From NCBI GenBank assembly GCA_017541885.1, contig JAFXYF010000014.1, positions 1,930-65,929 on the forward strand: DNA of 64,000 nt. Reading direction: 5' to 3'. Below, in pieces: positions 15,015-55,382 of the stretch. The number at the start of each line of letters is the position of its first letter. Positions within the stretch are counted from its first letter, which is position 1. Below the pieces are notes generated by a model. That model saw only the letters and a program-made list of their open reading frames with translations, searched no databases and was not told where the DNA came from. Position numbers and translations under genes: made by a program. This stretch comes from Bacilli bacterium. Its GTDB lineage: Bacteria; Bacillota_I; Bacilli_A; RF39; UBA660.

Positions 15015-17096
15015 GTGAAAGTTGTTCTGCAAGATGGTATTAAAGATTGTGGTATTTGCTGTCTCTTATCAATCATCAGGTATTATGGAGGAGAAGTACC
15101 TAAAGAGATTTTAAGAGAAATGACAAATACTACAAAAGATGGAGTATCATTATATAACTTGTTAGAAGCTTCAAATAATTTAGGATTTGAATCAATAGGT
15201 GTATCAGGTAATCTAGAAGATATAGCTCTAAATAACTTACCCTGTATAGCTCATGTTCAAGTAAAAAACAATCGTAAACATTTCATTGTAATATATGAAA
15301 TAAATAAAGAAAGTGAACAAGTAATTGTAATGGATCCTGCAAAAGGAAAAAGAAAATTATCTTTTTCTGAATTTAATTTACTATCTAGTAAATATTATTT
15401 ATTCTTAAAACCAAAAAAGAAGATTCCGATACTCAAGAAAAAAAATATAGTTTACCAAAATATAATAAAATTATTCAAAGAACACCAACAATTATTAATA
15501 GTTATTTTTCTATTAACAACAAATTATTTCATATTAAATATTATAACTTCTTTTCATTTTAAGTACCTAATAGAGTACACAATAAATAAAAATGTTTCAA
15601 ATAATCTCTTAAAACTATCAATTTCATTATTAATAATCTATTTAATGAAAAATATAATAATGACATTAAGAGATATTTTATTAAATAAATGGAGTTCTCT
15701 TTTTACACTTGAAGTAACAACATTTCTCTATCAACAAATTCTCTTGCTTCCATATCTCTATTTTAAAAATAGAACAACAGGAGAAGTAATATCTAGATTC
15801 CAAGATCTTGGAAATATTAGAGATTACTTAACAATTCTTTTTAGTACTATTACTATAGACTTAGTATCTTGTATTATCTTTTTGATATTAATGTGGAACT
15901 ATCAAAAAACAATATCTTCCCTGATTTGTATAATATTATTAGTATCTGCACTATATACAATTATTATTTCAAAAAGTAAAAAAAGAAAAATGAAAATGAT
16001 TAAACAAAAAGAAGATATTGCAAACTCTTATATAATTCAAGGAATAACTAATGTAGATACTATTAAAGGTAGTCATATTGAAAAAAGATTAATCGATAAA
16101 TTTAATTTAAACTATAAGTCTTTACAAGAAAGTATATACAACTATCTAAATTTTCATCATATTGAAAATTTTATTAAAAACAATCTACAAGATGGTATCT
16201 TTCTAATTCTTTATGGATTAGGTAGTTATTATTGTATAAGAGAGAATATGAATCTAAGCAGTTTAATTATTTATTCTTCATTTGTAAATTATTATTCAAC
16301 CAGTTTTTCAAATATTATTAATTTAATTAGTAATTATCATTCATACAATTTAACACTAGATAGAGTAGAAGAATTATTCATGTTAGATAAGGAGGAGTTT
16401 AAGCATAATTATTTCTATCTACCATATCAATTAAAAGGAGATATTTGTATCCATAATTTAAGTTACAAGATAGGAACAAAAGTAATATTAGATAATTTAA
16501 ATATAAACATAAAGCACGGAGAAAAAGTATTATTATGTGGAGATTCTGGTAGTGGTAAATCAACTCTAATGAAAATGTTAATGAGATACATTCAAATAGA
16601 TTTTGACAAAATTAAGATTGCAAACATAGATATAAATCATTATCACCTTCAAAACATAAGAAATAATATTACTTATCTATCAAGTAACGAATATCTATTT
16701 CAAGATTCAATTAAGAATAATATTTGTATGTATCAAGATTATCAAGAAGAAGATATAAAAGAAGTCTGCGATATATGTTTCGTAGATGAAATACTAAAAA
16801 GTAAAAATATAACATTAGATTCAATTATAGAAGAAAATGGATTTAACTTTAGTAATGGTGAAAGACAAAGAATTATTTTAGCTAGAAGTCTTCTTAGAAA
16901 CACTAGTATCTATATTTTAGATGAAGCTTTAGCACAAATAGATATAAATAAAGAAAAGAAAATCTTAGAAAAGTTATTTACTTATCTAAAAGATAAAACA
17001 GTTATTGTCATATCACATCGTTTTAACAATAAAAAAGTATTTGATAGAGTTTTAAAATTAGAAAAAGGAAAAATAAATGAAACAAAAAAACTATGA
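15015..17096 (+). CDS. Peptidase-C39-domain ABC exporter for double-glycine peptides (ComA/LagD/SunT type)
   Basis: N-terminal C39 motifs (QDGIKDCGICCL, KHFIVIY, VMDPAKG), a six-TM domain, Walker A GDSGSGKST, signature FSNGERQR, Walker B IYILDEA. Confidence 0.9.
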   Translation: MKVVLQDGIKDCGICCLLSIIRYYGGEVPKEILREMTNTTKDGVSLYNLLEASNNLGFESIGVSGNLEDIALNNLPCIAHVQVKNNRKHFIVIYEINKESEQVIVMDPAKGKRKLSFSEFNLLSSKYYLFLKPKKKIPILKKKNIVYQNIIKLFKEHQQLLIVIFLLTTNYFILNIITSFHFKYLIEYTINKNVSNNLLKLSISLLIIYLMKNIIMTLRDILLNKWSSLFTLEVTTFLYQQILLLPYLYFKNRTTGEVISRFQDLGNIRDYLTILFSTITIDLVSCIIFLILMWNYQKTISSLICIILLVSALYTIIISKSKKRKMKMIKQKEDIANSYIIQGITNVDTIKGSHIEKRLIDKFNLNYKSLQESIYNYLNFHHIENFIKNNLQDGIFLILYGLGSYYCIRENMNLSSLIIYSSFVNYYSTSFSNIINLISNYHSYNLTLDRVEELFMLDKEEFKHNYFYLPYQLKGDICIHNLSYKIGTKVILDNLNINIKHGEKVLLCGDSGSGKSTLMKMLMRYIQIDFDKIKIANIDINHYHLQNIRNNITYLSSNEYLFQDSIKNNICMYQDYQEEDIKEVCDICFVDEILKSKNITLDSIIEENGFNFSNGERQRIILARSLLRNTSIYILDEALAQIDINKEKKILEKLFTYLKDKTVIVISHRFNNKKVFDRVLKLEKGKINETKKL

Positions 17097-17481
17097 GAAA
17101 AAAACTCTAGTATTATTTTTGACAATATTATTATGGATCATTGAAATATGTTTTATTATCTATTTATCTAATATAAGAATAATAGAATATAAATTATTTC
17201 AAGTAATAATGATTAGTAATAAAGAAGGAGTAGTTTATTTATCTAAAGAAGATAAAAAATTATTTTATAAAAGTAGTTATTATTACTATAAAGATAAAAA
17301 ATATTACTTTGAAATTATAGATGAAAAAAAAGTAAATGATCTAATAGAAATAAAATTAAAAACATCTATCAAAAATCTAAAAGAAAATGATATTATAACA
17401 ATCTCGATAGAGAATAAAAGAATAAGTGAACTAGAAACTATTATAGATATATGGGGTGGTGATAAAAATAGTAAAGGTTGA
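17077..17481 (+). CDS. Small single-TM protein, possible minimal export accessory protein
   Basis: It overlaps the ABC gene by 20 nt. N-terminal TM LVLFLTILLWIIEICFIIYL followed by a roughly 100-aa soluble domain. Function is inferred only from position. Confidence 0.4.
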   Translation: MKQKNYEKKTLVLFLTILLWIIEICFIIYLSNIRIIEYKLFQVIMISNKEGVVYLSKEDKKLFYKSSYYYYKDKKYYFEIIDEKKVNDLIEIKLKTSIKNLKENDIITISIENKRISELETIIDIWGGDKNSKG

Positions 17482-36047: not shown

Positions 36048-36890
36048 ATGGACGGTGTAATAGTAATTAATAAACCAAAAGGTATTACTTCATTTGATGT
36101 AGTACATGAAGTTAGTAGATTTTTAGAAATAAAGAAAGTAGGGCATACTGGTACTCTAGATCCTTTAGCAGAAGGAGTATTAATTGTCTGTGTAGGTCAG
36201 GCTACTAAAATTGCTGAATTACTAACAAGTTATGATAAATAGTATATTGCAGGAGTAGAATTAGGAATTGAAACTGATACTTATGATATAGAAGGAAAAG
36301 TTCTAGAAGAAAAAGAAGTAGGAGACAATCTACCAATAAAAGAAGTTTTAGATTCATACAAAAAAACATATCTTCAAGAAGTACCAATTTATTCTGCAGT
36401 AAAAGTAAATGGTAAGAAATTATATGAATATGCAAGAGAGAATATTGAAGTAGAATTACCTAAAAAAGAAGTAACTATTAAAGATATAGAATTATTAGAA
36501 AATAACAATAAAACATTTAAATTTAGAGCATTTGTTACTAAAGGATGTTATATCAGAAGTCTTATTCATGATATTGGCCAATCTTTAGGTACAGGAGCAA
36601 CAATGACATCTCTAATTAGAACTAAACAAGGAAGTACTAGTATTGAAGAATCATGTACTTTAGAAGAGTTTAAACAAGGTAAATTTAAATTAAAAAGTAT
36701 AGAAGAAGTATTAGATATGCCAATAATTGTAGTAGATTCTGATTTAGAGTTTAGAATCAAAAATGGACAAAAACTTCATAATAATTGGGGTATAGTAGAT
36801 AAAGTATTATTTAAAAGTGAAGATAATAAACTATTAGGTATTTATGAAGTAGAAGAAAATCACTTAAGAGTGTGGAAAAACTTTTATTAA
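36048..36890 (+). pseudogene. truB: tRNA pseudouridine(55) synthase TruB interrupted by a single in-frame TAG (36240-36242)
   Basis: N-terminal part carries the catalytic motif [14 protein letters not shown]. After TAG the same frame continues YIAGVELGIETDTYD...PIYSAVKVNGKKLYEYAR... to 36890 with no further stops. The ORF track splits it into 36048-36242 and 36603-36890 in the same frame. Confidence 0.85.
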
Positions 36891-41635: not shown

Positions 41636-42202
41636 ATGAAAAAAAAGCAATTAGTAGAAGAATACAACGATTGCTGGATTTACGTGCTATTACTCACAAC
41701 ATTAACAATATTAATTCAATCAGTAAAAAGTTATAAGTTTATGTTTATGGGATGTGAATTAGGATATAATATTTTTCTAATCCCAGGAATTTATTTCTTA
41801 TCAAATTATATTTGTAAGAAATATGACTATAAAAAAGCGATAGCCGCAATAGCTATCTCTGGAGTAATCTTTGTAGGATTTATAGTTACTATGGAATTTG
41901 CTTTAGGTAAAGGATTAGTACTATCTACTCTAGTAGGTGATTTTTGTGGATATGTAGTAAGTCAATTTGTAAACTTAATGATTTATGTATTTTTACTAAA
42001 CAATACTAGAAGTCCATATATATTAGTATTATTAAATTATATATTCTCAATTATTGTTTATTATATGATTTATACATTAATGTATTTAAACTTAGTAATA
42101 CAAGATGGATACTGGTTAAAATACTTTATCACAATAGGTATTGATGCAGTAATATGTTTAGTAGTTGCCTTGATTGATAAGAGAATAAAAAGAGGTATTT
42201 AA
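41636..42202 (+). CDS. Polytopic membrane protein, possibly a second VUT/DUF165-like transporter
   Basis: GAGGTGG lies 7 nt before the ATG at 41636. About 6 TM helices. Size and organisation resemble the YhhQ-like protein at 6259. The assignment is tentative. Confidence 0.3.
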   Translation: MKKKQLVEEYNDCWIYVLLLTTLTILIQSVKSYKFMFMGCELGYNIFLIPGIYFLSNYICKKYDYKKAIAAIAISGVIFVGFIVTMEFALGKGLVLSTLVGDFCGYVVSQFVNLMIYVFLLNNTRSPYILVLLNYIFSIIVYYMIYTLMYLNLVIQDGYWLKYFITIGIDAVICLVVALIDKRIKRGI

Positions 42203-42214
42203 TACCTCTTTTTT

Positions 42215-42943
42215 TTATTCATGAAATTGTCTATTGTATAAGAATTTATAGAAGAAGAATCCAACTATTAATACTCCAACTATAATAAAGAATTCTATAA
42301 TTGCTAAAGTATCATGATCAATATGTTTTTGTAATACTCCATAAGATGTAGCCATACTTTTCTTATTACGCATAACTTTATAATAGATATCTACATTATC
42401 TTTATTATATTTATCAATAACCCATTGAGTTTTACCATCAATATAAGTTCCATTACTATATTGATCAGGATAGATAGAAGATACTTCAATAACCATTGTC
42501 TTATCTTGTAAACAATAGAAAGCACCTTTTAAATCAATTTCTAAGTAATCATCTTCATCTTTAATAGAAGGCTTTTCAAAACATGTATTAATATAATTTG
42601 AATTAACAAAATCTTTTTCTAAGTAGTTGAAGTCAAGTTGAGCTTCAACTGCTTTTTTAAATTGATTAATATTCTTACCATAATAAGTATAAACATTATT
42701 ATGAATTGGTCTTGAGAAGTTATCTATCAATAATATGTATTCAAGTGAATCATAATCAGAATCCATACTATTAACTGCAAGTTCATAAGCATTTGATGGA
42801 AAAGTAAATGTAATATTCTCTTTATAATAATTACTAATATCTAGACTATAGAATATTGTATTAACATCATGTTCTGCTTCTCCTAAAGAACAACCAGTAA
42901 CAAATAAAACAATTACAAATAAAGATATAATTATTTTTTTCAT
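42215..42943 (-). CDS. Lipoprotein with an additional C-terminal TM helix, unknown function
   Basis: Lipobox LFVTGC at the N-terminus. C-terminal TM LAIIEFFIIVGVLIVGFFFY. Last gene of the minus-strand three-gene module. Confidence 0.6.
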   Translation of the reverse strand: MKKIIISLFVIVLFVTGCSLGEAEHDVNTIFYSLDISNYYKENITFTFPSNAYELAVNSMDSDYDSLEYILLIDNFSRPIHNNVYTYYGKNINQFKKAVEAQLDFNYLEKDFVNSNYINTCFEKPSIKDEDDYLEIDLKGAFYCLQDKTMVIEVSSIYPDQYSNGTYIDGKTQWVIDKYNKDNVDIYYKVMRNKKSMATSYGVLQKHIDHDTLAIIEFFIIVGVLIVGFFFYKFLYNRQFHE

Positions 42944-42953
42944 ATTTTACCCC

Positions 42954-43913
42954 CTAACTACTAGATAGGGATATTGCAACATCCCATCCACACCAATTAG
43001 CAGTTCTACAACGATTATTGTAGTTATAAGTATAATTGAATAATTCTTCAGGTGAATAACAACCATTAGATGTAGGTCTTGAAGGATTATATAGATAAAT
43101 CTTATCACTAGAACATTGTATATTAGGTCCTGCAACTGCCCAGTGTCCAGGCATACCAAACATTACAGATTTACCAGAGTTAACTGCTCTAAGTATTCTA
43201 GAACCTTCAATAGAATTATACTCTGTGCCATAGTTCTTATCATTTTGTCCTGTTTTATTAAATAAAGCTTCACCTGTAAGACCAAAGTTATCTAATGTAT
43301 CTTTAGACATTACAGCATTTTCATGTAATCCACCATCAGATAAACTATATTTATTAGAACAGAACCATCTCGCAACAGTAGGTGGATTATAAGATGGATG
43401 AACATAAGAAGATGCAATCATTGCGAAAGATACTGCTCCACATCCAGAATTTGCGATAGTATTTTCTCCGCTACAGAATAAATCATTAGGATAATTTCCT
43501 TGACTATAATAAACTAATTCTTTTAGTACTTTTACATTACCAGTTAAATACATATCAGGATCATATAATATAGAAGTTTTACTCCTATCATCAATTGGAA
43601 TATAAGTAGAGTTCATATGAACATTACCAGCTAATTCCCAACAAGAACTAATAGAAGTAGTCTCTCCCAAAGCACCTAAAACTACATTAACAATAACCGG
43701 TACAAAGAAAACCATAAATAAAGCAATTATAGAATTCTTTACCTTTTTAATTAATTTATTATTATCAGGATCTCTTACTAATTGAATAAAAGTAATTGAT
43801 AAGCTAACAATACATAAAATAGGGGCAATAATCTGAAATAGATTTAATAATCTTTTTACAACTGCCAAAATACCTACTAATGCATAGTCGTAGCAGCTAC
43901 TGACAATATTCAT
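42954..43913 (-). CDS. Membrane-tethered papain-like (C39-like/peptidase_C39_2-type) cysteine peptidase domain protein
   Basis: Two N-terminal TM helices separated by a short charged loop (...IQLVRDPDNNKLIKKVKN...). The extracytoplasmic domain has a Cys motif NSGCGAVSFAMI and a His motif GMPGHWAVAG. Confidence 0.55.
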   Translation of the reverse strand: MNIVSSCYDYALVGILAVVKRLLNLFQIIAPILCIVSLSITFIQLVRDPDNNKLIKKVKNSIIALFMVFFVPVIVNVVLGALGETTSISSCWELAGNVHMNSTYIPIDDRSKTSILYDPDMYLTGNVKVLKELVYYSQGNYPNDLFCSGENTIANSGCGAVSFAMIASSYVHPSYNPPTVARWFCSNKYSLSDGGLHENAVMSKDTLDNFGLTGEALFNKTGQNDKNYGTEYNSIEGSRILRAVNSGKSVMFGMPGHWAVAGPNIQCSSDKIYLYNPSRPTSNGCYSPEELFNYTYNYNNRCRTANWCGWDVAISLSSS

Positions 43914-43925
43914 AAATACTCCTTT

Positions 43926-44621
43926 CTATATCACTAAAACAAGTAAAAATGTAAATAAATTATGCATCATGTGTAGACATATAGTTGTATAAATAGTATT
44001 TGTTTTGTGATATGCAAATGCAAATGCTCCACCTAAAGCTCCATATGGAATAATATATAGCCAATCAACAAATGTAGAAGCCATACTAGATACATGAGCA
44101 TAACCAAACATTAAAAATGATAAAATAACAAATATTTCTCTTCTTTTAAATACATCATATAAAGTTTTTCTAAAAACTATTTCTTCAATAATAGGTGCAA
44201 GTACACATACATTAAGACCCATAATTAATGGTAAAGAATGAATCATAGATCTAACTAAATTTTCATTATTCGCACCATTTGCATGAAAGAATACTAATAA
44301 GATACTGTTAGATAAAACCATAATTATAAGACCAACAACCCAACAAGCAATACCAGTATCCATATTTTTCTTCCAGTCTTTTTTAAATATCTTAAAGTCT
44401 TCTTTTAAATCTTTATAATAAATACATATAAGTATAAATAATAATATTAAATCAGAAAAAGCACTAAGTAAGACACTTATTCTAGTATTACCAGCAAAAT
44501 TACTTAATTGTTCATTAAATAATCTAAAAGGAATGTATTGAAAATAAACTGATCCATAGAATAAACATAAAACTATTAGACCTTTTATAATCTTGTCGAT
44601 TCTATCATTCAAGATTTTCAT
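43926..44621 (-). CDS. CPBP-family intramembrane glutamic endopeptidase (CAAX protease/Abi-like)
   Basis: Motif 1 EEIVFRKTLY, motif 2 FGYAHV, motif 3 HMMHN. Polytopic membrane protein. Confidence 0.85.
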   Translation of the reverse strand: MKILNDRIDKIIKGLIVLCLFYGSVYFQYIPFRLFNEQLSNFAGNTRISVLLSAFSDLILLFILICIYYKDLKEDFKIFKKDWKKNMDTGIACWVVGLIIMVLSNSILLVFFHANGANNENLVRSMIHSLPLIMGLNVCVLAPIIEEIVFRKTLYDVFKRREIFVILSFLMFGYAHVSSMASTFVDWLYIIPYGALGGAFAFAYHKTNTIYTTICLHMMHNLFTFLLVLVI

Positions 44622-44684
44622 ACTATCACCAATTATAAAATATCATAAAATAGAAGAATAATAAAGAAAATAGATTAAAAATAC

Positions 44685-44710
44685 TTGTCTAATTGTCTAA
44701 TTCTAGAATT
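44685..44710. promoter_or_regulatory. Direct repeat plus palindrome in a divergent intergenic region (candidate operator)
   Basis: TTGTCTAA TTGTCTAA (44685-44700), overlapping the 12-bp perfect palindrome AATTCTAGAATT (44699-44710). Confidence 0.3.
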
Positions 44711-44765
44711 GATTTTTATTATTTTTTATAATATAATTTTAATAGTAGGATAAGGAGTGTTATAA

Positions 44766-45782
44766 ATGGAAGAATTAGAAGAATTTGAAATAGTAGAAGA
44801 TAAAAAGGATGAAGTAGTAATTTATAGAGACAAAGATGATTTAAAAAGAGTATTTGTAACTAAGCCAGTACTAGATAAATTCAAAATAGAAATGCCTTAC
44901 TATAAATTATGTTTAGACAATGGTGATGAATTATATGAGATTAAACCAGAAGAAGCTATTTATATCATTGAAAATGCCGATAATAGATTTGCTCCTTATG
45001 ATATTCGTTATCAAAACTTTGATTTTAATAATGAATTAGAAGATGAAACACAAGAAACTGTTCGTAGACAAATGGAAGAACCAATGGACGTTATTAAAAT
45101 CTATAGAGATGTTAATAGATCAGAAAGAGCTTTTGTAACAAAAGATGTAATGATGAGATTCCATTTAGATGATGATCATCATAAAGTATTACTAGGAGAT
45201 TTCATAGTATATGAAATAGATCCAACAGAAGCAATTAATATTATCAATAATAGTACAAATAAATATGCTCCATATCAAATAGAGTATGTAGCAATTGAAT
45301 TTGATAATGATAAAACAGTAGAAAAAGAAGATACTGTAGAAGAAGCTAAGGAAGAGCCTATTAAAGAAGAAAAAGTAGAAGAAAAGCAAGTTGAGAAAAA
45401 AGAAGAAGATGAATATAGACCTAGACCTAGACTTAGAAGAGAAAATGAATCAGATGAATTATATGCCGCATATCTAGAAGGATACTATGATAGAATGTTT
45501 AATGTAATTCCTGAAAAAGAAAACTTAAGCAAAAAAGAAAAACAACAACCAGTAATTCTACCAAAAGAAGAAAAACATTCTGATCAAAAATATGATAAAG
45601 AATATCTTAAATTATTAAAAGATAGTATTTTAAATAAAAAAGTTCTAGATTCAGTAAAAGCTGAAAATGTTATTAAACAAAGAAAACAAAGAAAAGATGA
45701 AACTGATGAAGAATATAATGCATATCTATCAATGTTCTATGGAACACCAGACCAAGAAGATGAGAATGTAAAATCAAAATAA
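44766..45782 (+). CDS. Hypothetical protein with an internally duplicated roughly 80-aa domain and a K/E-rich tail
   Basis: Repeat 1 VVIYRDKDDLKRVFVTKPVL...YEIKPEEAIYIIENADNRFAPYDIRY. Repeat 2 IKIYRDVNRSERAFVTKDVM...YEIDPTEAINIINNSTNKYAPYQIEY. AAGGAG RBS. Confidence 0.6.
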   Translation: MEELEEFEIVEDKKDEVVIYRDKDDLKRVFVTKPVLDKFKIEMPYYKLCLDNGDELYEIKPEEAIYIIENADNRFAPYDIRYQNFDFNNELEDETQETVRRQMEEPMDVIKIYRDVNRSERAFVTKDVMMRFHLDDDHHKVLLGDFIVYEIDPTEAINIINNSTNKYAPYQIEYVAIEFDNDKTVEKEDTVEEAKEEPIKEEKVEEKQVEKKEEDEYRPRPRLRRENESDELYAAYLEGYYDRMFNVIPEKENLSKKEKQQPVILPKEEKHSDQKYDKEYLKLLKDSILNKKVLDSVKAENVIKQRKQRKDETDEEYNAYLSMFYGTPDQEDENVKSK

Positions 45783-46208: not shown

Positions 46209-46850
46209 TTGAAAAAGAAGAATATATTTATTGGCTTTAATAAAGATAAGGAAAGATGTTTATTATATAAAATAGATGAAAATAGTTTTGTTGATTTAGA
46301 AACAAATACTAAATATACAGTAGATGATTTATTAGAAACAACAATCTTACCTTATAATAGATTTATTTCATTAAAAGGATTTGCTTCTAAAAAGAAAGCA
46401 AAAAAGAAATATCAAAAAGATGCAAATGAAAGAATTAGAGTAGATGAGTTATTTATAGGAGATTTAGGAGAAGTAACTAGTGTTTATGGTTTTAAAGAAA
46501 GCATAACTAAAGTTAATTTAGAACCATACATGCAGTTTATGTGTGCATATTGTAATATACCAATGATAAATGAAGATTGGTATATGCCTAAGATAATTGA
46601 TTATAAATACTCATATAAAATAATTGCCAAAGACATCTTATTACAAAGAGTAGATAATGATAATAAAGATCCTGATTACATATGTCTTATTTCAAATACA
46701 AAGATATCTCATAAAGATGGAATGTTACAAAAAGGAGACATTATAGTAGGACCTAATCTAAAACCTTTTAAAGAAGTAATAGAAGTAGAAGAAGGATTAA
46801 TGCCAAAGGACAAAGTTATGGAACTTCATATAAGGAACAGAACTAAATAG
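46209..46850 (+). CDS. Hypothetical protein inserted between rpsO and pnp
   Basis: 213-aa ORF with a TTG start after GAGGGG. I recognise no motif. Confidence 0.4.
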   Translation: MKKKNIFIGFNKDKERCLLYKIDENSFVDLETNTKYTVDDLLETTILPYNRFISLKGFASKKKAKKKYQKDANERIRVDELFIGDLGEVTSVYGFKESITKVNLEPYMQFMCAYCNIPMINEDWYMPKIIDYKYSYKIIAKDILLQRVDNDNKDPDYICLISNTKISHKDGMLQKGDIIVGPNLKPFKEVIEVEEGLMPKDKVMELHIRNRTK

Positions 46851-50389: not shown

Positions 50390-50469
50390 TGTAAATTAAC
50401 AGTGCTATTTACAATATATAATTGTAAAACACTCCCAGTAATATTATAATTAAGCTAGGAGTATTGTAT

Positions 50470-53073
50470 ATGAAATTCACTAGAAGAAAGCGTAGATTTG
50501 ATACTAAAAAATATAGAATCTTTGCCATTCTAGTTTTTGTGTTGTGTTTAACAGTAGGTTATTCTATTCTTAGTGTTGGTTTAGGAATTTCTGGAGCAAT
50601 AAATATTTCAAGAATAAAGGATCCTATTATTAGAAAAACATCAGAATCTGATACAACAGCTTTTAGAGGAAGTAACTATAAAAGTAGAATAAAAGCAATT
50701 TATTTGGATAATGAAATTAATCCGCCAGACAATGTAGTTGCTTCTTGGGATATAAGTGAGGCGGGTAATGGAAGAGTAATGGCATATTTAAAGTTCCAAG
50801 AAGATAACTGGTGTTATGATCTTTTCATACAAGGAGATGGACATTTATATGCCAATGAGGATAGTAGCTATCTTTTTAGTGGTTTTGGAAACGTAAATGT
50901 TTTAGAAGGTTTAGATAAACTAGATACTTCTAGAGTCACAAATATGTCTCATATGTTTTATATTATAGGTAGTTCTTCGTTCATACTTAATCTAAGTGAT
51001 AATTTTGATACAAGTAATGTTACAGATATGTCTTGGATGTTCTTCCGCGTTGGTTCTAGTAATAGAAATTTAATAATAAATTTAGGAAATAAATTTGATA
51101 CAAGTAATGTTACAGATATGAGTTATATGTTTTATAATATAGGTTACACAGCTACAGATTTTAATTTAGATTTAGGAAATAAGTTTGATACAAGTAGTGT
51201 AACAAATATGTCTCACATGTTTGAACAAATAGGATATGAAAGTTCAACAATTACCATAGACTTTGGGGATAAATTTGATACAAGTAATGTTACAACTATG
51301 GAGAATATGTTTTATAGAGCAGGATATAAAGCAAGTACTTCATTTAACCTAAATTTAGGTGATAATTTTGATACTAAAAGTGTTACAACTATGAGGCAAA
51401 TGTTTTATCAAGCAGGCTGTTTGTGCCCTGGATTCACATTAGATTTGGGTAATAGCTTTGATACATCAAATGTAACAGATATGTATAGGATGTTTTATTC
51501 TACAGGAAATAAAAGTACAGTAATGACATTAGATTTAGGAGATAAATTTGATACAAGTAATGTAACAAATATGACTGAGATGTTTGCCTATACAGGATAT
51601 TACAGTCAAGTTTTTACCATAGACTTAGGAAATAAATTTGATACAAGCAAAGTAACAAATATGACTAGAATTTTTCATAGGACAGCAGTTGAAAGTAGAG
51701 TTATAACACTTGATCTTGGAAATAAATTTGATACCAGTAAAATAACTAATATGTCAGATATGTTTAATGGAGTTGGCCATAATAGTACTGGATTCACTCT
51801 AAACTTAGGCCCTATGTTTGATACAAGTAATGTAACAAATATGTCAAGAATGTTCTACGAAACTGGATATGAATCAACAGGTTTTACATTAAATCTTGGA
51901 AACAAATTTGATACCAGCAACGTAACAGATACTAGAGAAATGTTTGCATTTACAGGATATAACAGTAATGTTATGACATTAGATTTAGGCGATAAATTTG
52001 ATACAAGCAATGTTACTGATATGAGTAATATGTTTTATAGTACAGCGTTCAATTCCCCAGTATTTACTTTGGATTTAGGTCCAAATTTTGATACAAGCAG
52101 TGTAGTAAATATGTCCGCTACGTTTTGTGACATAGGATTTAACAGTTCTATTTTAACACTAGATTTAGGTGATAAATTTGATACAAGTAATGTAACAAAT
52201 ATGGCTGCACTATTTACTTCAGTTGGTTATTCAAATACCTCATTCACTTTAGATTTAGGTGATAAATTTAATACAAGTAATGTTGAAGATATGTCAAGTA
52301 TGTTTTGTAGAACAGCAAATGTTAGTACAGTTTTTACAATTGATTTTGGAGATAAATTTAATACTAGTAACGTAACAAATATGTCCAATATGTTTTATGG
52401 AATTAATGCAGAGAATACACAACCATTTTCTTTAGATCTTTCATGCTTTGACACATCTAACGTTTATGATATGAGCATGATGTTTAAAGAAGCCGCAAAA
52501 AATAGTCAATTATTCACTTTAAATTTAGGACCAAATTTTGATACCAGCAATGTAACAACAATGGAAGAAATGTTTCGTGATGTAGGGTATAATAGTATGA
52601 TATTTACATTAGATTTGGGGAATAAATTTAATACTGAAAATGTATATGATATGTCCAGTATGTTCAGCTATGTTGGATATAATAGTACGTCATTAACATT
52701 AAATTTGGGGCCTAATTTTGACACAAGTAATGTTAATAGTATGGGAAGTATGTTTAATGACACAGGGTACTCTGATCAAACATTTACGTTAGACTTAGGA
52801 AACAAGTTTAATACTGCCAATACAGAGTACATGAGTTCTATGTTTGATAACACAGGACATAGTAATACATCTTTCGAAATAGATCTATCTACGTTTGATT
52901 TTAGTAATGTGTCAGGAACACCAGCTGGAATGTTTAGTGGATGGGCTACAACTCAAAAGATCTATGTAAAAGATGCTAATGATCAAAATTGGATATTGAC
53001 TAATGTAGGATATTTAGCTACTGAATATCCAAATACAAACTTAACAACAGCCAATGTCATAATAAAAACATAA
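50470..53073 (+). CDS. BspA-family/DUF285-type leucine-rich repeat surface protein, paralog 1
   Basis: N-terminal basic signal-anchor (RRKRRFDTKKYRIFAILVFVLCLTVGYSIL), then about 23 tandem 30-aa modules with core LDLG.KFDTSNVTNMS.MF. AGGAG RBS before the ATG at 50470. Confidence 0.8.
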   Translation: MKFTRRKRRFDTKKYRIFAILVFVLCLTVGYSILSVGLGISGAINISRIKDPIIRKTSESDTTAFRGSNYKSRIKAIYLDNEINPPDNVVASWDISEAGNGRVMAYLKFQEDNWCYDLFIQGDGHLYANEDSSYLFSGFGNVNVLEGLDKLDTSRVTNMSHMFYIIGSSSFILNLSDNFDTSNVTDMSWMFFRVGSSNRNLIINLGNKFDTSNVTDMSYMFYNIGYTATDFNLDLGNKFDTSSVTNMSHMFEQIGYESSTITIDFGDKFDTSNVTTMENMFYRAGYKASTSFNLNLGDNFDTKSVTTMRQMFYQAGCLCPGFTLDLGNSFDTSNVTDMYRMFYSTGNKSTVMTLDLGDKFDTSNVTNMTEMFAYTGYYSQVFTIDLGNKFDTSKVTNMTRIFHRTAVESRVITLDLGNKFDTSKITNMSDMFNGVGHNSTGFTLNLGPMFDTSNVTNMSRMFYETGYESTGFTLNLGNKFDTSNVTDTREMFAFTGYNSNVMTLDLGDKFDTSNVTDMSNMFYSTAFNSPVFTLDLGPNFDTSSVVNMSATFCDIGFNSSILTLDLGDKFDTSNVTNMAALFTSVGYSNTSFTLDLGDKFNTSNVEDMSSMFCRTANVSTVFTIDFGDKFNTSNVTNMSNMFYGINAENTQPFSLDLSCFDTSNVYDMSMMFKEAAKNSQLFTLNLGPNFDTSNVTTMEEMFRDVGYNSMIFTLDLGNKFNTENVYDMSSMFSYVGYNSTSLTLNLGPNFDTSNVNSMGSMFNDTGYSDQTFTLDLGNKFNTANTEYMSSMFDNTGHSNTSFEIDLSTFDFSNVSGTPAGMFSGWATTQKIYVKDANDQNWILTNVGYLATEYPNTNLTTANVIIKT
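50914..52940 (+). repeat. Tandem in-frame repeat array of about 90 bp (about 23 units) encoding DUF285-type modules
   Basis: Recurrent AAATTTGATACAAGTAATGTAACAAATATG cores with a 90-93 bp period (e.g. 51091, 51181, 51271). Confidence 0.85.
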
Positions 53074-53096: not shown

Positions 53097-53186
53097 TGTT
53101 TATTATTGTAAAGTAAATGCATTATATACTCTCATTTATTGAGGTATAATGCTAAGAATAGTATAATTAAACTAGGAGTACTATAT

Positions 53187-55382
53187 ATGAAAATAACTAG
53201 AAGAAAGCGTAGATTTGATAATAGAAAATATAGAATCTTTGCAATTCTAGTTTTTGTGTTGTGTCTAACTGTTGGATATTCTTTATTAAATACAAATTTA
53301 GGTATAACTGGAAACTTAGTAGTAAAAAAGTATAGAGAGCCAATTATAAGGAGAACATCTGTAAGTGATCCAACTGCTTTTAGAAGCAGTGAATACAAGC
53401 AAAAAATAAAAACAATCACATTAGATGATGAAATAAACCCACCAAACAATGTAGTTGCCAGTTGGGATATTGGTGTTGCAGGTAATGGAAATGTAATGGC
53501 CTATATTACAACAAATCAAGATGACAACACAATGTATGATTTATATATACAGGGTGATGGACATTTATATGCCCATGAAGATAGCAAACATTTATTTTAT
53601 GGCTTTGAATATGTTGATCAATTAAATGGAATAGACATTCTTGATGTATCTAGAGTAACAAATATGGAAGGAATGTTTATGTCTTTAGGAAAGAACAGTC
53701 AGGTCTTTACATTAGATTTAGGGAATAAATTTGATACAAGTAACGTCACAAATATGAATTCTATGTTTAAAAATTTAGGAATGAATTGTCCTATGTTTAC
53801 CCTAAACATTGGCAACAACTTTGATACAAGCAATGTAACTGATATGTATAATATGTTTGCATATACGGGAAATAAAAGTACAATCTTTACATTAAATTTA
53901 GGTTCTAAATTTGATACAAGTAATGTTACAAGTATGGAGCTGATGTTTGGATATACGGGGCAAGAAAGCACAGCTTTTACACTAGATTTAGGAGACAAGT
54001 TTGATACGAGTAATGTAACAACCATGCAATCAATGTTTTATAATACTGGTTATTCTAACATTAATTTTACTTTGAATTTAGGAACAAGATTTGACACTAG
54101 TAAAGTAACTAATATGGGTGTTATGTTTTATCAAACGGGTTACAAAAGTACAGTCTTTACCTTAGATTTAGGTTCTAAATTTGATACAAGTAATGTTACT
54201 AAAATGGGAGCTATGTTTCAATACACTGGATATAGCAGTCCTGTATTTACAATTAATCTAGGCTCAAAATTTGATACAAGCAGTGTTACTAATATGCAGT
54301 CAATGTTTACATCAACAGGTTATACAAGCACAGTATTCACACTAAATTTAGGTGACAAATTTGATACAAGCAATGTTACAAATATGAGTTGGATGTTTTG
54401 TCGCACTGGTCATAATAGTCAAATATTTACACTGGATTTAGGTTCTAAATTTGATACAAGTAATGTAACAAATATGAGTTATATGTTCTCATCTACAGGA
54501 TATAGCAGCACATTGTTCACACTAGATTTAGGCTCAAAATTTGATACAAGTAACGTTACTGATATGAGCTATATGTTTTCTGGAGTTGGTTATAATAGCA
54601 CAACATTTCAATTGAATTTGGGTTCCAAATTTGATACGGGTAATGTGAAAAATATGAGTTATTTATTCAAAGATGCTGGTTATAGTAGCCAAATGTTCAC
54701 ATTAGACCTAGGAGATAAATTTGAAACTATCAAAGTAACTAATATGCAATCATTGTTTTCATCTACAGGCTATAATAGTACAGTTTTCACGCTAGATTTA
54801 AGAGACAAATTTGACACAAGTAACGTTACTATGATGAATGGGATGTTTTCAAATACAGGTAATACCAGTACAGTGTTTGAATTAGATTTAGGCGATAAAT
54901 TTGATACGAGCAATGTTACAGAAATGTCACATATGTTTTCGTCTACAGGTTATAATAGTGTAGTATTTACATTAGATCTAGGTGACAAATTTGATACAAG
55001 TAAAGTAACTACAATGTATTGTATGTTTAAAGATTGTGGAAAGAGCAATTCCACCTTTACTATTGATTTAGGATCAAAATTTGATACAAGCAATGTTACA
55101 AATATGACATGGATGCTTGCAGGAATAGGCTTTGCTAATGATAACTTAGAGTTAGACTTATCATCATTTGATTTTTCAAACGTAACTAATTATGGACACA
55201 TGTTAGGATATAAACATGGTAATTCTTCTAGTGGCAATTATCTAAAAACAACTCAGAAAGTATATGTAAAAGATAGCAATGATGTTGATTGGATAGTAAC
55301 ACATGTTGGAAATGAGAATCCTGATCCTGATGCAGCTGTCAACACAAATGTAACAAGAGCAAATGTCTTAATAAAAACATAA
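53187..55382 (+). CDS. BspA-family/DUF285-type leucine-rich repeat surface protein, paralog 2
   Basis: The N-terminus is nearly identical to paralog 1 (MKITRRKRRFDNRKYRIFAILVFVLCLTVGYSLL). About 18 modules LDLG.KFDTSNVTNMS.MF. AGGAG RBS before the ATG at 53187. Confidence 0.8.
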   Translation: MKITRRKRRFDNRKYRIFAILVFVLCLTVGYSLLNTNLGITGNLVVKKYREPIIRRTSVSDPTAFRSSEYKQKIKTITLDDEINPPNNVVASWDIGVAGNGNVMAYITTNQDDNTMYDLYIQGDGHLYAHEDSKHLFYGFEYVDQLNGIDILDVSRVTNMEGMFMSLGKNSQVFTLDLGNKFDTSNVTNMNSMFKNLGMNCPMFTLNIGNNFDTSNVTDMYNMFAYTGNKSTIFTLNLGSKFDTSNVTSMELMFGYTGQESTAFTLDLGDKFDTSNVTTMQSMFYNTGYSNINFTLNLGTRFDTSKVTNMGVMFYQTGYKSTVFTLDLGSKFDTSNVTKMGAMFQYTGYSSPVFTINLGSKFDTSSVTNMQSMFTSTGYTSTVFTLNLGDKFDTSNVTNMSWMFCRTGHNSQIFTLDLGSKFDTSNVTNMSYMFSSTGYSSTLFTLDLGSKFDTSNVTDMSYMFSGVGYNSTTFQLNLGSKFDTGNVKNMSYLFKDAGYSSQMFTLDLGDKFETIKVTNMQSLFSSTGYNSTVFTLDLRDKFDTSNVTMMNGMFSNTGNTSTVFELDLGDKFDTSNVTEMSHMFSSTGYNSVVFTLDLGDKFDTSKVTTMYCMFKDCGKSNSTFTIDLGSKFDTSNVTNMTWMLAGIGFANDNLELDLSSFDFSNVTNYGHMLGYKHGNSSSGNYLKTTQKVYVKDSNDVDWIVTHVGNENPDPDAAVNTNVTRANVLIKT
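53640..55205 (+). repeat. Tandem in-frame repeat array of about 90 bp (about 18 units) encoding DUF285-type modules
   Basis: Same repeat core as the first array. Confidence 0.85.

What the first reader, a model, noticed from the sequence alone, without database searches (positions are those of the whole stretch)
42215..44621. Minus-strand CPBP protease, membrane-tethered papain-like peptidase and lipoprotein module inserted into the rbfA-rpsO backbone
Seen in sequence: three tightly spaced genes on the opposite strand interrupt a region that is contiguous in B. subtilis (rbfA-truB-ribC-rpsO).
- The first encodes a CPBP/Abi-type intramembrane protease (EEIVFR, FGYAH, HMMHN).
- The second has two N-terminal TM helices around a short charged loop, plus an extracytoplasmic Cys/His peptidase domain (SGCGAVSFAMI ... 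GHWAVAG).
- The third is a lipoprotein with an extra C-terminal TM.

Established knowledge: CPBP/Abi proteins frequently act as bacteriocin or toxin self-immunity factors. C39-like and papain-like domains process or degrade peptides and cell wall.

Inference: this may be a self-contained effector-plus-immunity or surface-processing module. I do not recognise the combination as a described system. The N-terminal helix-loop-helix of the peptidase also resembles VirB2/TrbC-type pilin-like proteins of Gram-positive conjugation systems, but no other transfer genes are present.
Basis: partly seen in the sequence, partly recalled or inferred. Interest (0 to 1): 0.65.

Follow-up and report, generated by a model that had tools for sequence, protein, structure and literature searches.

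The report
Pilin-anchored wall peptidase with lipoprotein partner
Three opposite-strand genes in an uncultured gut Bacilli bacterium encode a membrane protease, a cysteine peptidase held at the cell surface by an anchor borrowed from conjugation pilins, and a lipoprotein that always travels with that peptidase; the pair is most likely a cell-wall remodelling unit descended from DNA-transfer machinery, not a toxin-immunity module.

Summary
The three minus-strand genes are real, tightly packed and end at a shared terminator.

- **Gene 1** is a CPBP/Rce1-like intramembrane protease with all catalytic motifs intact.
- **Gene 2** has a two-helix N-terminal hairpin that passes Pfam's T4SS_pilin (VirB2-like) threshold. 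It also has a flexible stalk and a disulfide-rich, divergent Peptidase_C39_2-type papain-fold domain (Q138/C158/H257 invariant).
- **Gene 3** is a lipoprotein with a C-terminal transmembrane helix. Its fold best matches M. tuberculosis LppM.

The conserved unit is the pair, not the trio. Peptidase and lipoprotein are adjacent in all seven genomic contexts examined, one of them inside a Gram-positive conjugation (T4SS) cluster. The CPBP accompanies them only in the window's own syntenic clade. In relatives it sits at the same rbfA–rpsO slot alone, or with a different pilin-anchored protein.

In paralogues the same anchor carries NlpC/P60, CHAP, M23, glucosaminidase, DD-carboxypeptidase, L,D-transpeptidase and canonical C39_2 domains. 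I therefore read gene 2 as a membrane-tethered cell-wall peptidase of T4SS descent, working with its lipoprotein partner. An effector/immunity role is not supported.

This is a new variant of a known kind, of moderate interest.

The parts
43926..44621 (-). CPBP (Rce1-like, glutamic-type) intramembrane protease, 231 aa. It is the resident gene of the rbfA-rpsO slot in this lineage and the first gene of the three-gene operon.
   Evidence: Pfam PF02517 at E 2.7e-17. The best NCBIfam partial hits are an ABC-permease/CPBP model and MroQ, both far below cut-off. The motifs E146-E147-x-x-F-R151, F172-x-x-x-H176 and H217-x-x-H220-N221 are invariant in 16 orthologues. There are about 6 hydrophobic segments. 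dN/dS is 0.25-0.33.
43629..43913 (-). Gene 2, residues 1-95: a VirB2/T4SS_pilin-type two-helix membrane hairpin. The predicted topology is N-out/C-out with a Lys-rich cytoplasmic turn. Invariant Cys7 and Cys91 flank the hairpin.
   Evidence: Pfam PF18895 at 31.3 bits against a cut-off of 26.6. The AF2 model has helices 10-47 and 52-81. C7, P31, P72 and C91 are invariant even among 49 paralogues with other C-terminal domains.
43533..43628 (-). Gene 2, residues 96-127: a flexible stalk of variable length.
   Evidence: pLDDT is below 50 for residues 98-127. The length varies and the region is rich in insertions across homologues.
42954..43532 (-). Gene 2, residues 128-319 plus stop: an extracytoplasmic papain-fold cysteine peptidase domain, a divergent Peptidase_C39_2 type. 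Candidate catalytic residues are Q138, C158 and H257, with N276 (N or D in homologues) as the inferred third residue. Eight further conserved Cys are present.
   Evidence: Q138, C158 and H257 are invariant in 31 sequences. pLDDT is above 90. The top Foldseek hits are all clan-CA proteases: the PCAT1 C39 domain at E 0.05 and SpeB, and a phage protein named 'AvrRpt2-like papain-like protease' at E 5.5e-4, probability 0.99. Relatives found with the family profile carry PF13529 above cut-off. The window protein itself has no direct Pfam hit.
42215..42943 (-). Doubly anchored LppM-like lipoprotein, 242 aa, with a lipobox Cys18, a beta-rich ectodomain and a C-terminal transmembrane helix at 208-237. 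It is the obligate genomic partner of gene 2. An invariant loop, LLIDNFSRPIHNN (residues 71-83), is modelled with low confidence.
   Evidence: Pfam LPAM_1. AF2 pLDDT is 83. The top Foldseek hit is M. tuberculosis LppM (2nc8) at E 3.3e-5, probability 1.00. It is adjacent to a gene 2 homologue in every context examined. Invariant residues are listed. dN/dS is 0.12-0.27.
42187..42213 (.). Bidirectional intrinsic terminator hairpin, shared by the operon and the convergent 190-aa membrane-protein gene.
   Evidence: A 12-bp stem with T-runs on both strands.
44622..44765 (.). AT-rich divergent intergenic region that presumably holds the operon's promoter and that of the 338-aa gene on the other strand.
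   Evidence: Promoter-like hexamers occur on both strands, but no more than expected in shuffled sequence. The function is inferred from position only.

Best explanation
The core of the finding is a two-gene unit.

**Gene 2.** It encodes a cysteine peptidase displayed on the outer face of the cytoplasmic membrane. It is held there by a VirB2-like (T4SS_pilin) two-helix hairpin, probably clamped by a Cys7-Cys91 disulfide. A flexible stalk of about 30 residues lets the disulfide-rich Peptidase_C39_2-type domain (Q138/C158/H257) reach the wall.

**Gene 3.** It encodes a lipoprotein anchored at both ends (lipid and C-terminal helix), with an LppM-like beta-rich ectodomain. It is always encoded next to the peptidase. 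I infer that it binds and controls or targets the enzyme.

**Origin and role.** I infer that the pair descends from the cell-wall-opening equipment of Gram-positive conjugative type IV secretion systems. In most genomes, including this one, it now lives as a chromosomal orphan that trims peptide bonds in peptidoglycan or in wall-attached material during normal envelope growth.

**The CPBP gene.** It is an older resident of this chromosomal slot and has come to be co-transcribed with the pair. It may process the hairpin's short N-terminus or act on unrelated substrates, but it is not a dedicated component.

**Shown:** gene structures, family assignments, conserved catalytic residues, pair co-occurrence, the T4SS context of a distant pair, the range of enzymes carried by the anchor, and purifying selection.

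**Inferred:** topology, disulfides, physical interaction of the pair, the wall substrate, and any CPBP link.
For: 1. **Pair linkage.** Peptidase and lipoprotein homologues are adjacent in all seven contexts. These are the window clade, L018/19, L003/4, L015/16 with L035, L017, L010 and L005-7. The gene order is reversed in some, which argues for functional rather than accidental linkage.
2. **T4SS descent.**
   - The pair in L005-7 (33% and 44% identity) sits among three further pilin-like genes, a VirB6-like protein, PrgI, a TraC-like protein and VirB4.
   - The nearest recognisable C39_2 domains in reference genomes lie in 1136-1150-aa SpoIID+C39_2+M23 proteins.
   - One of these is in a complete conjugation cluster with T4SS_pilin, TrbL/VirB6, VirB4 and VirD4.
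3. **Wall-enzyme cargo.** Of 49 proteins sharing the N-terminal anchor, the matches were: 13 canonical Peptidase_C39_2, 4 C70, 3 NlpC/P60, 2 CHAP, 2 DD-carboxypeptidase S11, 2 NAGPA, 1 M23, 1 glucosaminidase, 1 YkuD and 1 GDPD.
4. **Active enzyme.** Q138, C158 and H257 are invariant. The domain is modelled confidently. The structural neighbours are all papain-like proteases.
5. **Walled host.** FtsW/RodA, MreC and MreD are encoded in the window.
6. **CPBP independence.**
7. **Maintenance and use.** dN/dS is 0.12-0.33. Low-depth contigs from four RNA-labelled gut runs cover all three genes, one spanning the gene 1/gene 2 junction.
8. **Published context.** Peptidase_C39_2 is counted among catalytic domains of Gram-positive phage lysins (PMC8223927). 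PF18895 is used as a VirB2-like pilin marker (PMC12102498).
Against: - No biochemical activity on peptidoglycan is established for this branch of C39_2. The window protein itself does not reach any Pfam peptidase model, and the Foldseek PDB matches are weak (best E 0.05).
- Only one of seven contexts is a T4SS cluster, so the direction of evolution (T4SS to chromosome, or the reverse) is inferred.
- A physical interaction between peptidase and lipoprotein was not tested, because no complex prediction was available.
- The CPBP-pilin-protein adjacency recurs with a different ectodomain in L024-26, with the same 12-nt spacing. This could mean the CPBP is functionally tied to the anchor after all.
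- The RNA evidence is contig-based, unstranded and no stronger than over flanking genes, so DNA carry-over cannot be excluded.
Confidence: 0.5

Rival explanations
1. Lipoprotein-tailoring or shedding system. The papain-fold enzyme, alone or with the CPBP, acts on the adjacent lipoprotein itself. It would either cleave it from one of its two anchors (a sheddase) or transfer an acyl group onto its N-terminus. The second option resembles S. aureus, where CPBP-like LnsB and the papain-fold enzyme LnsA N-acylate lipoproteins.
For: - The trio's composition (CPBP, Cys/His papain-fold enzyme, lipoprotein) mirrors LnsAB plus substrate (PMC7387801).
- Strict peptidase-lipoprotein adjacency fits a dedicated enzyme-substrate pair.
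- The lipoprotein has an invariant but poorly modelled surface loop (residues 71-83) that could be a recognition or cleavage site.
- Its structural neighbour LppM has both a lipobox and a C-terminal transmembrane helix, and a soluble form of it is active (PMC5217060).
Against: - LnsA is a permuted NlpC/P60 enzyme (His before Cys), and LnsB lacks the CPBP catalytic motifs. Here Cys precedes His and the CPBP motifs are intact.
- The CPBP is absent from six of seven pair contexts.
- The anchor's other cargoes are wall hydrolases, not acyltransferases.
Confidence: 0.13
2. The peptidase is a toxic effector aimed at competitors or at the cell's own wall. The CPBP, or the lipoprotein, provides self-immunity.
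For: - CPBP/Abi proteins are known bacteriocin-immunity factors (established knowledge).
- Tight pairing with variable gene order resembles effector-immunity pairs.
- One distant pair lies next to a SUKH/SMI1_KNR4 gene, a family typical of immunity proteins.
- C-domain relatives occur with dockerin, Big_2 and Listeria-Bacteroides repeats, so they are secreted or surface-displayed.
Against: - The enzyme has no signal peptide or delivery domain and is anchored by two helices in the producer's membrane.
- The CPBP is a lineage-wide resident gene that occurs without the pair.
- There is no hit to defence models.
- There is no polymorphic C-terminal variation within the family: identity is 52-92% along the full length.
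- The pair sits in housekeeping neighbourhoods.
Confidence: 0.1
3. Still a working conjugation or secretion component. The pilin-anchored peptidase and lipoprotein serve a T4SS or pilus-like apparatus encoded elsewhere in this genome, as its wall-piercing subunit.
For: - The N-terminal domain passes the T4SS_pilin threshold.
- The L005-7 homologues are embedded in a T4SS cluster.
- Arrays of pilin-anchored enzymes stand beside a type-IV-pilin-like giant protein in L020-22.
Against: - No VirB4, VirD4, VirB6 or relaxase gene is in the 64-kb window.
- The pair is syntenic and vertically inherited between housekeeping genes across genomes down to 61% identity.
- Five other orphan contexts also lack T4SS genes.
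- There are no matches in plasmid, phage or IMG/VR collections.
Confidence: 0.1
4. Peptide-signal or bacteriocin maturation. The C39-like domain and the CPBP together process an exported peptide, much as C39 domains remove double-glycine leaders and MroQ helps mature AgrD.
For: - The domain is C39-like. The best PDB neighbour is the PCAT1 peptidase domain.
- The CPBP's second-best NCBIfam partial match is MroQ.
- The window encodes a double-glycine-leader peptide (17602-17787).
Against: - That peptide has its own C39-ABC exporter directly upstream.
- C39 leader peptidases act on the cytoplasmic side, whereas this domain is disulfide-rich and extracytoplasmic.
- No small precursor gene accompanies the pair in any context.
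- The MroQ score is far below cut-off (43.5 against 270 bits).
Confidence: 0.05

Closest known systems
VirB1-type peptidoglycan hydrolases of Gram-positive conjugation systems (PrgK of pCF10, TcpG of pCW3, CwlT of ICEBs1)
   Same: - They are membrane-anchored enzymes that open the wall locally.
- They use papain-fold (CHAP, NlpC/P60) and M23 domains.
- Distant homologues of this pair, and related C39_2 domains, lie in such clusters.
- The same anchor carries CHAP, NlpC/P60, M23 and glucosaminidase domains in paralogues.
   Different: - The catalytic domain here is C39_2-type only, with no glycosidase module.
- The anchor is a VirB2-like hairpin rather than a single transmembrane helix.
- The gene is a chromosomal orphan among translation genes.
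- It has an obligate lipoprotein partner.
VirB2/TrbC-type T4SS pilins (Pfam PF18895 T4SS_pilin)
   Same: It has a two-helix hairpin with a short basic loop and scores above the Pfam threshold. Stand-alone 115-140-aa relatives exist in large numbers.
   Different: - Here the hairpin is only the first 95 residues of a 319-aa enzyme.
- There is no cleavable signal peptide.
- No secretion genes are nearby.
- Nothing shows that it polymerises.
Peptidase_C39_2 (PF13529) / C39 / C70 clan-CA cysteine peptidases
   Same: It shares the Gln...Cys...His order, a small-residue motif around the Cys (SGCG), and the papain fold. Intermediate relatives hit PF13529.
   Different: - It is too divergent for a direct Pfam hit.
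- It has eight extra conserved cysteines.
- It is extracytoplasmic, not a cytoplasmic leader peptidase.
LppM (Rv2171) of Mycobacterium tuberculosis
   Same: The architecture matches: signal peptide with lipobox, beta-rich domain and C-terminal transmembrane helix. LppM is the best structural match (E 3.3e-5, probability 1.0; PMC5217060).
   Different: - There is no sequence similarity and no DUF3153 hit.
- The phylum is different.
- LppM binds phosphatidylinositol mannosides, which Bacilli lack.
- LppM has no known peptidase partner.
Membrane hydrolase plus polytopic or anchored partner complexes (SagB-SpdC, LytH-ActH of S. aureus)
   Same: The logic is the same: a membrane-tethered wall hydrolase depends on a membrane partner. 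SpdC is itself a CPBP-family protein (established knowledge; the papers surfaced).
   Different: - SpdC lacks the catalytic residues, whereas this CPBP keeps them.
- The constant partner here is the lipoprotein, not the CPBP.
- The enzyme classes differ.
LnsAB lipoprotein N-acyltransferase of S. aureus
   Same: A CPBP-family membrane protein plus a papain-fold Cys/His enzyme act on lipoproteins (PMC7387801).
   Different: - LnsA is a permuted NlpC/P60 enzyme.
- LnsB has degenerate motifs.
- The genes are unlinked in S. aureus.
- There is no pilin anchor.

Membership tests
CPBP / Rce1-like intramembrane protease (PF02517) | Profile match above the curated threshold | tested here: met
   63.2 bits against a cut-off of 22.4, E 2.7e-17.
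CPBP / Rce1-like intramembrane protease (PF02517) | Catalytic motifs EExxxR, FxxxH and HxxxN/D | tested here: met
   E146-E147...R151, F172...H176 and H217..H220-N221 are invariant in 16 orthologues.
CPBP / Rce1-like intramembrane protease (PF02517) | Acts as a bacteriocin or toxin immunity factor | not testable with these tools
   There is no nearby bacteriocin gene. The only double-glycine peptide locus is 26 kb away and has its own exporter.
MroQ (NF046050) equivalog | Score above the NCBIfam equivalog cut-off | tested here: not met
   43.5 bits against a cut-off of 270.
T4SS_pilin / VirB2-like (PF18895) | Profile match above the curated threshold | tested here: met
   31.3 bits against 26.6, residues 20-78.
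T4SS_pilin / VirB2-like (PF18895) | Two transmembrane helices joined by a short loop | tested here: met
   AF2 helices at 10-47 and 52-81. Hydrophobic segments at 11-47 and 57-88.
T4SS_pilin / VirB2-like (PF18895) | Encoded in a type IV secretion gene cluster | tested here: not met
   No T4SS genes are in the window. The feature is met only for the distant homologue in L005-7.
T4SS_pilin / VirB2-like (PF18895) | Small processed subunit that polymerises into a pilus | tested here: not met
   It is a 319-aa fusion protein with no signal peptide ahead of the hairpin. Polymerisation itself is not testable here.
Peptidase_C39_2 (PF13529), clan CA | Direct profile match | tested here: not met
   The C-terminal 196 residues give no Pfam hit at E up to 1.
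Peptidase_C39_2 (PF13529), clan CA | Homology through intermediates that match the profile | tested here: met
   - Profile hits P0099 (E 2.7e-44) and P0083 (E 2.0e-61) carry PF13529 above cut-off.
- 13 of 49 anchor-sharing proteins hit it, best E 6.3e-21.
- BLAST links to the C39_2 domains of L011-L014.
Peptidase_C39_2 (PF13529), clan CA | Conserved Gln (oxyanion), catalytic Cys, then His | tested here: met
   Q138, C158 and H257 are invariant in 31 sequences.
Peptidase_C39_2 (PF13529), clan CA | Papain-like fold | tested here: inconclusive
   Every top Foldseek hit is a clan-CA protease. However, the best PDB E-value is 0.05. One BFVD hit reaches E 5.5e-4, probability 0.99. The whole-chain model includes the hairpin, which lowers the scores.
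Gram-positive T4SS VirB1-like wall hydrolase | Membrane-anchored protein with a recognised peptidoglycan-hydrolase domain | tested here: inconclusive
   The anchor is present. C39_2 is not an established peptidoglycan-hydrolase domain, but it co-occurs with SpoIID and M23 in T4SS proteins and shares the anchor with CHAP, NlpC/P60 and M23 domains.
Gram-positive T4SS VirB1-like wall hydrolase | Located beside VirB4/VirB6/VirD4 genes | tested here: not met
   Absent in the window and in six of seven pair contexts.
Gram-positive T4SS VirB1-like wall hydrolase | Cleaves peptidoglycan | not testable with these tools
   This needs a zymogram or muropeptide assay.
LppM-like lipoprotein (DUF3153) | Lipobox plus C-terminal transmembrane helix around a beta-rich domain | tested here: met
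   LPAM_1 hit and Cys18. Helix at 210-240 and 13 strands. Hydrophobic segments.
LppM-like lipoprotein (DUF3153) | Structural similarity to LppM | tested here: met
   Foldseek 2nc8 at E 3.3e-5, probability 1.00, TM-score 0.43/0.58.
LppM-like lipoprotein (DUF3153) | Sequence-profile membership | tested here: not met
   No DUF3153 hit at E up to 0.1.
LnsAB lipoprotein N-acylation system | Permuted NlpC/P60 enzyme (His before Cys) plus a CPBP with degenerate motifs | tested here: not met
   Here Cys158 precedes His257 and the CPBP motifs are intact. Criteria are from PMC7387801.
Effector-immunity (polymorphic toxin) pair | Secreted or delivered toxin domain with a cognate adjacent immunity gene | tested here: not met
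   There is no signal peptide or delivery domain, and the enzyme is anchored by a hairpin. There are no PADLOC hits. Inhibition by the lipoprotein was not tested.

The most novel reading that the evidence does not exclude
VirB2-like pilin hairpins have been recruited, in uncultured low-GC Bacilli, as a general membrane anchor for a whole toolkit of wall-active ectoenzymes. The toolkit includes C39_2, NlpC/P60, CHAP, M23, glucosaminidase, DD-carboxypeptidase, L,D-transpeptidase and NAGPA domains. The C39_2 member works only as an obligate two-protein complex with a doubly anchored LppM-like lipoprotein. Together these would be an undescribed class of envelope-remodelling machine, domesticated from conjugation systems and possibly still able to co-assemble through the pilin domains.
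Probability: 0.35. Interest if true: 0.6.

Novelty: new variant of a known kind. Interest (0 to 1): 0.45.

Why it matters
- It would give a function and an origin to a family of unnamed proteins. About 66 full-length representative clusters (50%-identity clusters) reach E ≤ 1e-30, and thousands share the anchor. All come from uncultured rumen and gut Bacilli.
- It shows that a conjugation pilin fold can be reused as a membrane tether for cell-wall enzymes.
- It points to a testable enzyme-partner pair (C39_2 peptidase plus LppM-like lipoprotein). This could reveal what the poorly understood C39_2 domains and LppM-like lipoproteins actually do.
- It is also a caution. Tight operon packing with a CPBP protease looked like a three-part module, but comparative genomics splits it into a mobile pair and a resident neighbour.

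Tried and rejected
- **PDB sequence searches.** Searches with the single protein and with the family profile gave nothing, or only transmembrane-helix noise against chemokine receptors.
- **T4SS lipoprotein homology.** I tested whether the 242-aa lipoprotein next to the C39_2 hydrolase in T4SS clusters L013/L014 is homologous to gene 3.
  - A full-length HMM hit (22 bits) disappeared once the signal peptide and transmembrane helix were removed. It was then no better than 1000 shuffles.
  - hhalign gave only 45% probability.
  - The result is the same architecture, with homology not shown.
- **Defence, phage and plasmid origin.**
  - No PADLOC hits.
  - Only the CPBP hits an unannotated PHROG.
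  - No tblastn match in PLSDB plasmids or INPHARED phages.
  - None in IMG/VR.
- **Signs of insertion.** A search for flanking repeats found only a 20-nt perfect inverted repeat inside the coding regions (42286-42305 and 43722-43741). It is 19/20 in the 92%-identical relative but absent at 73% identity. I treat it as not functional.
- **Cys7 as a lipobox.** I considered reading the N-terminal 'VSSC' of gene 2 as a lipobox. I rejected this because no signal peptide precedes it, and a matching invariant Cys follows the second helix in all paralogues. A disulfide clamp is more likely.
- **Transcription.** RNA-labelled runs give thin, unstranded contigs over all three genes, at depths like those of the flanks. 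This is compatible with expression but is not proof.
- **Wider census.** The metagenome and genome scans returned only 7 loci each, so a large statistical census of contexts was not possible.

Full report
**Observation**

The ORF table shows three minus-strand ORFs exactly where the finding places them:
- 43926-44621 (231 aa)
- 42954-43913 (319 aa)
- 42215-42943 (242 aa)

Almost every other gene in the window is on the plus strand. The intergenic gaps are 12 and 10 nt, and a GAAAGGAG site precedes the second gene. The block ends at a 12-bp-stem hairpin (42187-42213) with T-runs on both strands. That hairpin also terminates the convergent 190-aa membrane-protein gene.

**What the three proteins are**

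*Gene 1.* It matches Pfam Rce1-like/CPBP at E 2.7e-17. The three catalytic motifs (EExxxR, FxxxH, HxxHN) are invariant in 16 orthologues, so it is probably an active intramembrane protease. Its NCBIfam matches, including MroQ, are far below their cut-offs.

*Gene 2.* It has three parts.
- Residues 1-95 form two long helices joined by a Lys-rich turn (AF2; hydropathy). They score 31.3 bits on Pfam T4SS_pilin (PF18895, cut-off 26.6). A recent survey uses that model as a VirB2-like pilin marker (PMC12102498).
- Residues 98-127 are a low-confidence stalk of variable length.
- Residues 128-319 are a confidently modelled domain (pLDDT above 90). Q138, C158 (SGCG) and H257 (PGHW) are invariant, and eight further cysteines are conserved. 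This fits an extracytoplasmic, disulfide-bonded enzyme.

The window protein gives no direct Pfam peptidase hit. Three lines of evidence still place it among C39_2-type papain-fold peptidases:
- The family profile finds relatives that carry Peptidase_C39_2 above threshold.
- BLAST links the Q...C region to the C39_2 domains of L011-L014.
- Every top structural neighbour is a papain-fold protease. These include the PCAT1 C39 domain and SpeB in the PDB (best E 0.05), and a phage protein named papain-like AvrRpt2-type protease in BFVD (E 5.5e-4, probability 0.99).

I therefore call it a divergent C39_2-type clan-CA peptidase. The fold evidence is suggestive rather than strong.

*Gene 3.* It has a lipobox (Cys18), a beta-rich ectodomain and a C-terminal helix. 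Its best structural match is M. tuberculosis LppM (E 3.3e-5, probability 1.0). LppM has the same unusual combination of a lipobox and a C-terminal transmembrane helix, and it binds glycolipids (PMC5217060). There is no sequence-level membership in that family.

**Which genes belong together**

The peptidase family and the lipoprotein family are both small in the word-indexed search (35 and 33 clusters). They occur on the same contigs.

In every locus I could read, a gene 3 homologue lies directly beside a gene 2 homologue:
- the window's clade (L001/2, L008, L009, L029-34, L036-38)
- L018/19, downstream of a polysaccharide deacetylase
- L003/4
- L015/16 and L035
- L017, between mutL and miaA
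- L010, between parAB and rplQ
- L005-7

In three of these the order is lipoprotein first. That makes seven independent contexts with the pair intact.

The CPBP behaves differently.
- It accompanies the pair only in the window's own syntenic clade.
- Its family is much larger, with 407 clusters at E up to 1e-10.
- In L027/28 it occupies the same rbfA-rpsO slot alone.
- In L024-26, a relative recorded in 128 blocks of the contig collection, it is followed after the same 12 nt by a different 353-aa protein. That protein shares only the pilin-type N-terminus (38% identity, including both conserved cysteines). No lipoprotein follows it.

So the CPBP is a resident of the slot, and the pair is the mobile, functionally linked unit. 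The recurrence of a pilin-anchored protein behind the CPBP leaves open a link between the CPBP and the anchor.

**Where the pair comes from**

The 33%/44%-identical pair in L005-7 is embedded in a Gram-positive type IV secretion cluster. That cluster has three more pilin-like genes, a 769-aa VirB6-like protein, PrgI, a TraC-like protein and VirB4. Tad-like genes and a Bro-N gene lie upstream.

In the species-representative genome collection, the nearest recognisable relatives of the catalytic domain are 1136-1150-aa SpoIID+C39_2+M23 proteins. One of them lies in a complete conjugation cluster with T4SS_pilin, TrbL/VirB6, VirB4 and VirD4.

That cluster also encodes a 242-aa lipoprotein with a C-terminal helix directly after the hydrolase. 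However, homology to gene 3 did not survive removal of the signal and transmembrane segments.

The window itself holds no transfer genes. No plasmid, phage or IMG/VR record matches.

**What the anchor carries elsewhere**

The exhaustive profile search found 5659 representatives at E up to 1e-3. Of these, 66 reached E 1e-30 or better; most of them, though not all, match over the full length. Many hits match only the N-terminal 125 residues. Some of these are 115-140-aa stand-alone pilin-like proteins. Others are 270-460-aa fusions.

I scanned 49 of these longer proteins, fusions and partial C-domain matches alike, against Pfam:

| Pfam family | Proteins (of 49) |
|---|---|
| T4SS_pilin | 32 |
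| Peptidase_C39_2 (best E 6e-21) | 13 |
| Peptidase_C70 | 4 |
| NlpC/P60 | 3 |
| CHAP | 2 |
| Peptidase_S11 (DD-carboxypeptidase) | 2 |
| NAGPA | 2 |
| M23 | 1 |
| Glucosaminidase | 1 |
| YkuD (L,D-transpeptidase) | 1 |
| GDPD | 1 |

This is essentially a catalogue of peptidoglycan- and wall-polymer-active enzymes. It overlaps the domain set of conjugative VirB1-type hydrolases. It is the strongest argument that gene 2's domain also works on the wall.

The host is walled: FtsW/RodA, MreC and MreD are in the window. A phage-lysin survey lists Peptidase_C39_2 among Gram-positive lysin catalytic domains (PMC8223927).

**Likely mechanism**

*Shown:*
- operon-like packing
- intact catalytic residues in both proteases
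- purifying selection on all three genes (dN/dS 0.12-0.33 against relatives at 92% and 72% peptidase identity)
- obligate pair linkage

*Inferred:*
- The hairpin inserts N-out/C-out. Its turn is basic and both ends are acidic or neutral. The invariant Cys7 and Cys91 form a clamp.
- The stalk lets the peptidase reach nascent wall.
- The doubly anchored lipoprotein binds it. The contact may run through the invariant but poorly modelled loop LLIDNFSRPIHNN. The lipoprotein then activates, restrains or positions the enzyme, as membrane partners do for other wall hydrolases.
- The CPBP may trim the hairpin's short N-terminus, or it may be unrelated.

*Expression.* Low-depth contigs from four RNA-labelled gut runs cover all three genes, one spanning the gene 1/gene 2 junction. 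They are unstranded and no deeper than over the flanks, so expression is plausible but unproven.

**Rivals**

- *Lipoprotein tailoring or shedding.* This is modelled on S. aureus LnsAB, a CPBP-like protein plus a papain-fold enzyme that N-acylate lipoproteins (PMC7387801). It is attractive for the trio's composition. It fails the specific LnsAB criteria and does not explain the CPBP-less pairs.
- *Effector and immunity.* This lacks any delivery feature and conflicts with the CPBP's independent distribution.
- *A working T4SS subunit.* This conflicts with vertical, syntenic inheritance among translation genes and with five other orphan contexts.
- *Leader-peptide processing.* This conflicts with the extracytoplasmic, disulfide-rich nature of the domain. 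In addition, the window's only double-glycine peptide has its own C39-ABC exporter.

**Novelty and verdict**

Each part belongs to a known superfamily, and membrane-tethered wall hydrolases with partners are a known theme. Three things appear to be undescribed:
- the use of a VirB2-like pilin hairpin as the tether for a whole range of wall enzymes
- the strict pairing of the C39_2 member with an LppM-like lipoprotein
- the pair's apparent domestication from conjugation clusters

Literature searches for the Pfam model returned only the Patescibacteria T4SS survey and one structure-clustering preprint. I rate this a new variant of a known kind, with interest 0.45 and confidence 0.5 in the proposed mechanism.

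Noticed in passing
window 36048-36890 (stop codon at 36240-36242): truB is one continuous reading frame broken by a single in-frame TAG (…LTSYDK*YIAGVELG…). The 92%-related contig L036 has GAG (Glu) at that codon and an intact 280-aa TruB. This is either a strain-specific nonsense mutation (pseudogene) or a sequencing error.
   Followed up: partly
window 15015-17096, 17077-17481, 17602-17787: A bacteriocin-type locus. It has a Peptidase_C39 + ABC transporter (PCAT, Pfam E 1e-31) and a 134-aa membrane protein. It also has a 61-aa peptide with a double-glycine leader (MWNMTNVNNETLDKISGG|DYSYV…).
   Followed up: partly
window 50464-53073 and 53139-55382: Two large tandem paralogues made of 9-11 DUF285 ('Mycoplasma protein') repeats, with similar N-terminal signal-anchor sequences. 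They suggest a Mollicutes-like surface repertoire in a walled Bacilli genome.
   Followed up: no
window 42286-42305 and 43722-43741: A 20-nt perfect inverted repeat. One arm lies in the lipoprotein's transmembrane-helix codons (LAIIEFF) and the other in the peptidase's second helix (KNSIIA). It is 19/20 in L036 but absent in L001, so it is probably a coincidence of hydrophobic codons.
   Followed up: yes
window 42203-42214 versus L001 9723-10211 and L036 6567-7055: Relatives carry a 162-aa NUDIX gene between the lipoprotein gene and the 188-190-aa membrane-protein gene. The window has only the shared terminator there, so the slot has gained or lost genes repeatedly.
   Followed up: partly
window 44766-45782 and 46209-46850: Two lineage-specific proteins with no Pfam family flank rpsO. 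One is a 338-aa highly acidic protein with an internal duplication (self-similar halves in BLAST against L009). The other is a 213-aa protein between rpsO and pnp. Both are conserved in relatives.
   Followed up: no
L020/L021 2650-10165: An array of pilin-anchored and free NAGPA (phosphodiester glycosidase) proteins, plus another T4SS_pilin-domain protein. They lie directly after a protein of more than 1414 aa that has a type-IV-pilin N-methylation motif. This may be a surface organelle locus.
   Followed up: no
L005 1-4463: The T4SS cluster that holds the distant pair also carries a T2SSE-type ATPase, two TadB/C-like membrane proteins and four short prepilin-like genes upstream. A Tad or competence-type pilus and a T4SS are thus encoded side by side.
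   Followed up: no
L001 16506-16960: In this relative the gene call fuses VanY (D-Ala-D-Ala carboxypeptidase) and TruB domains in one 464-aa product. This is either a real fusion or a gene-calling artefact.
   Followed up: no
window 42150-44800: The exact sequence (all sampled words) is present in 12 gut-metagenome runs from three studies. Runs from four further studies hold 75-83% of the words, so the organism is recurrent in gut samples.
   Followed up: partly
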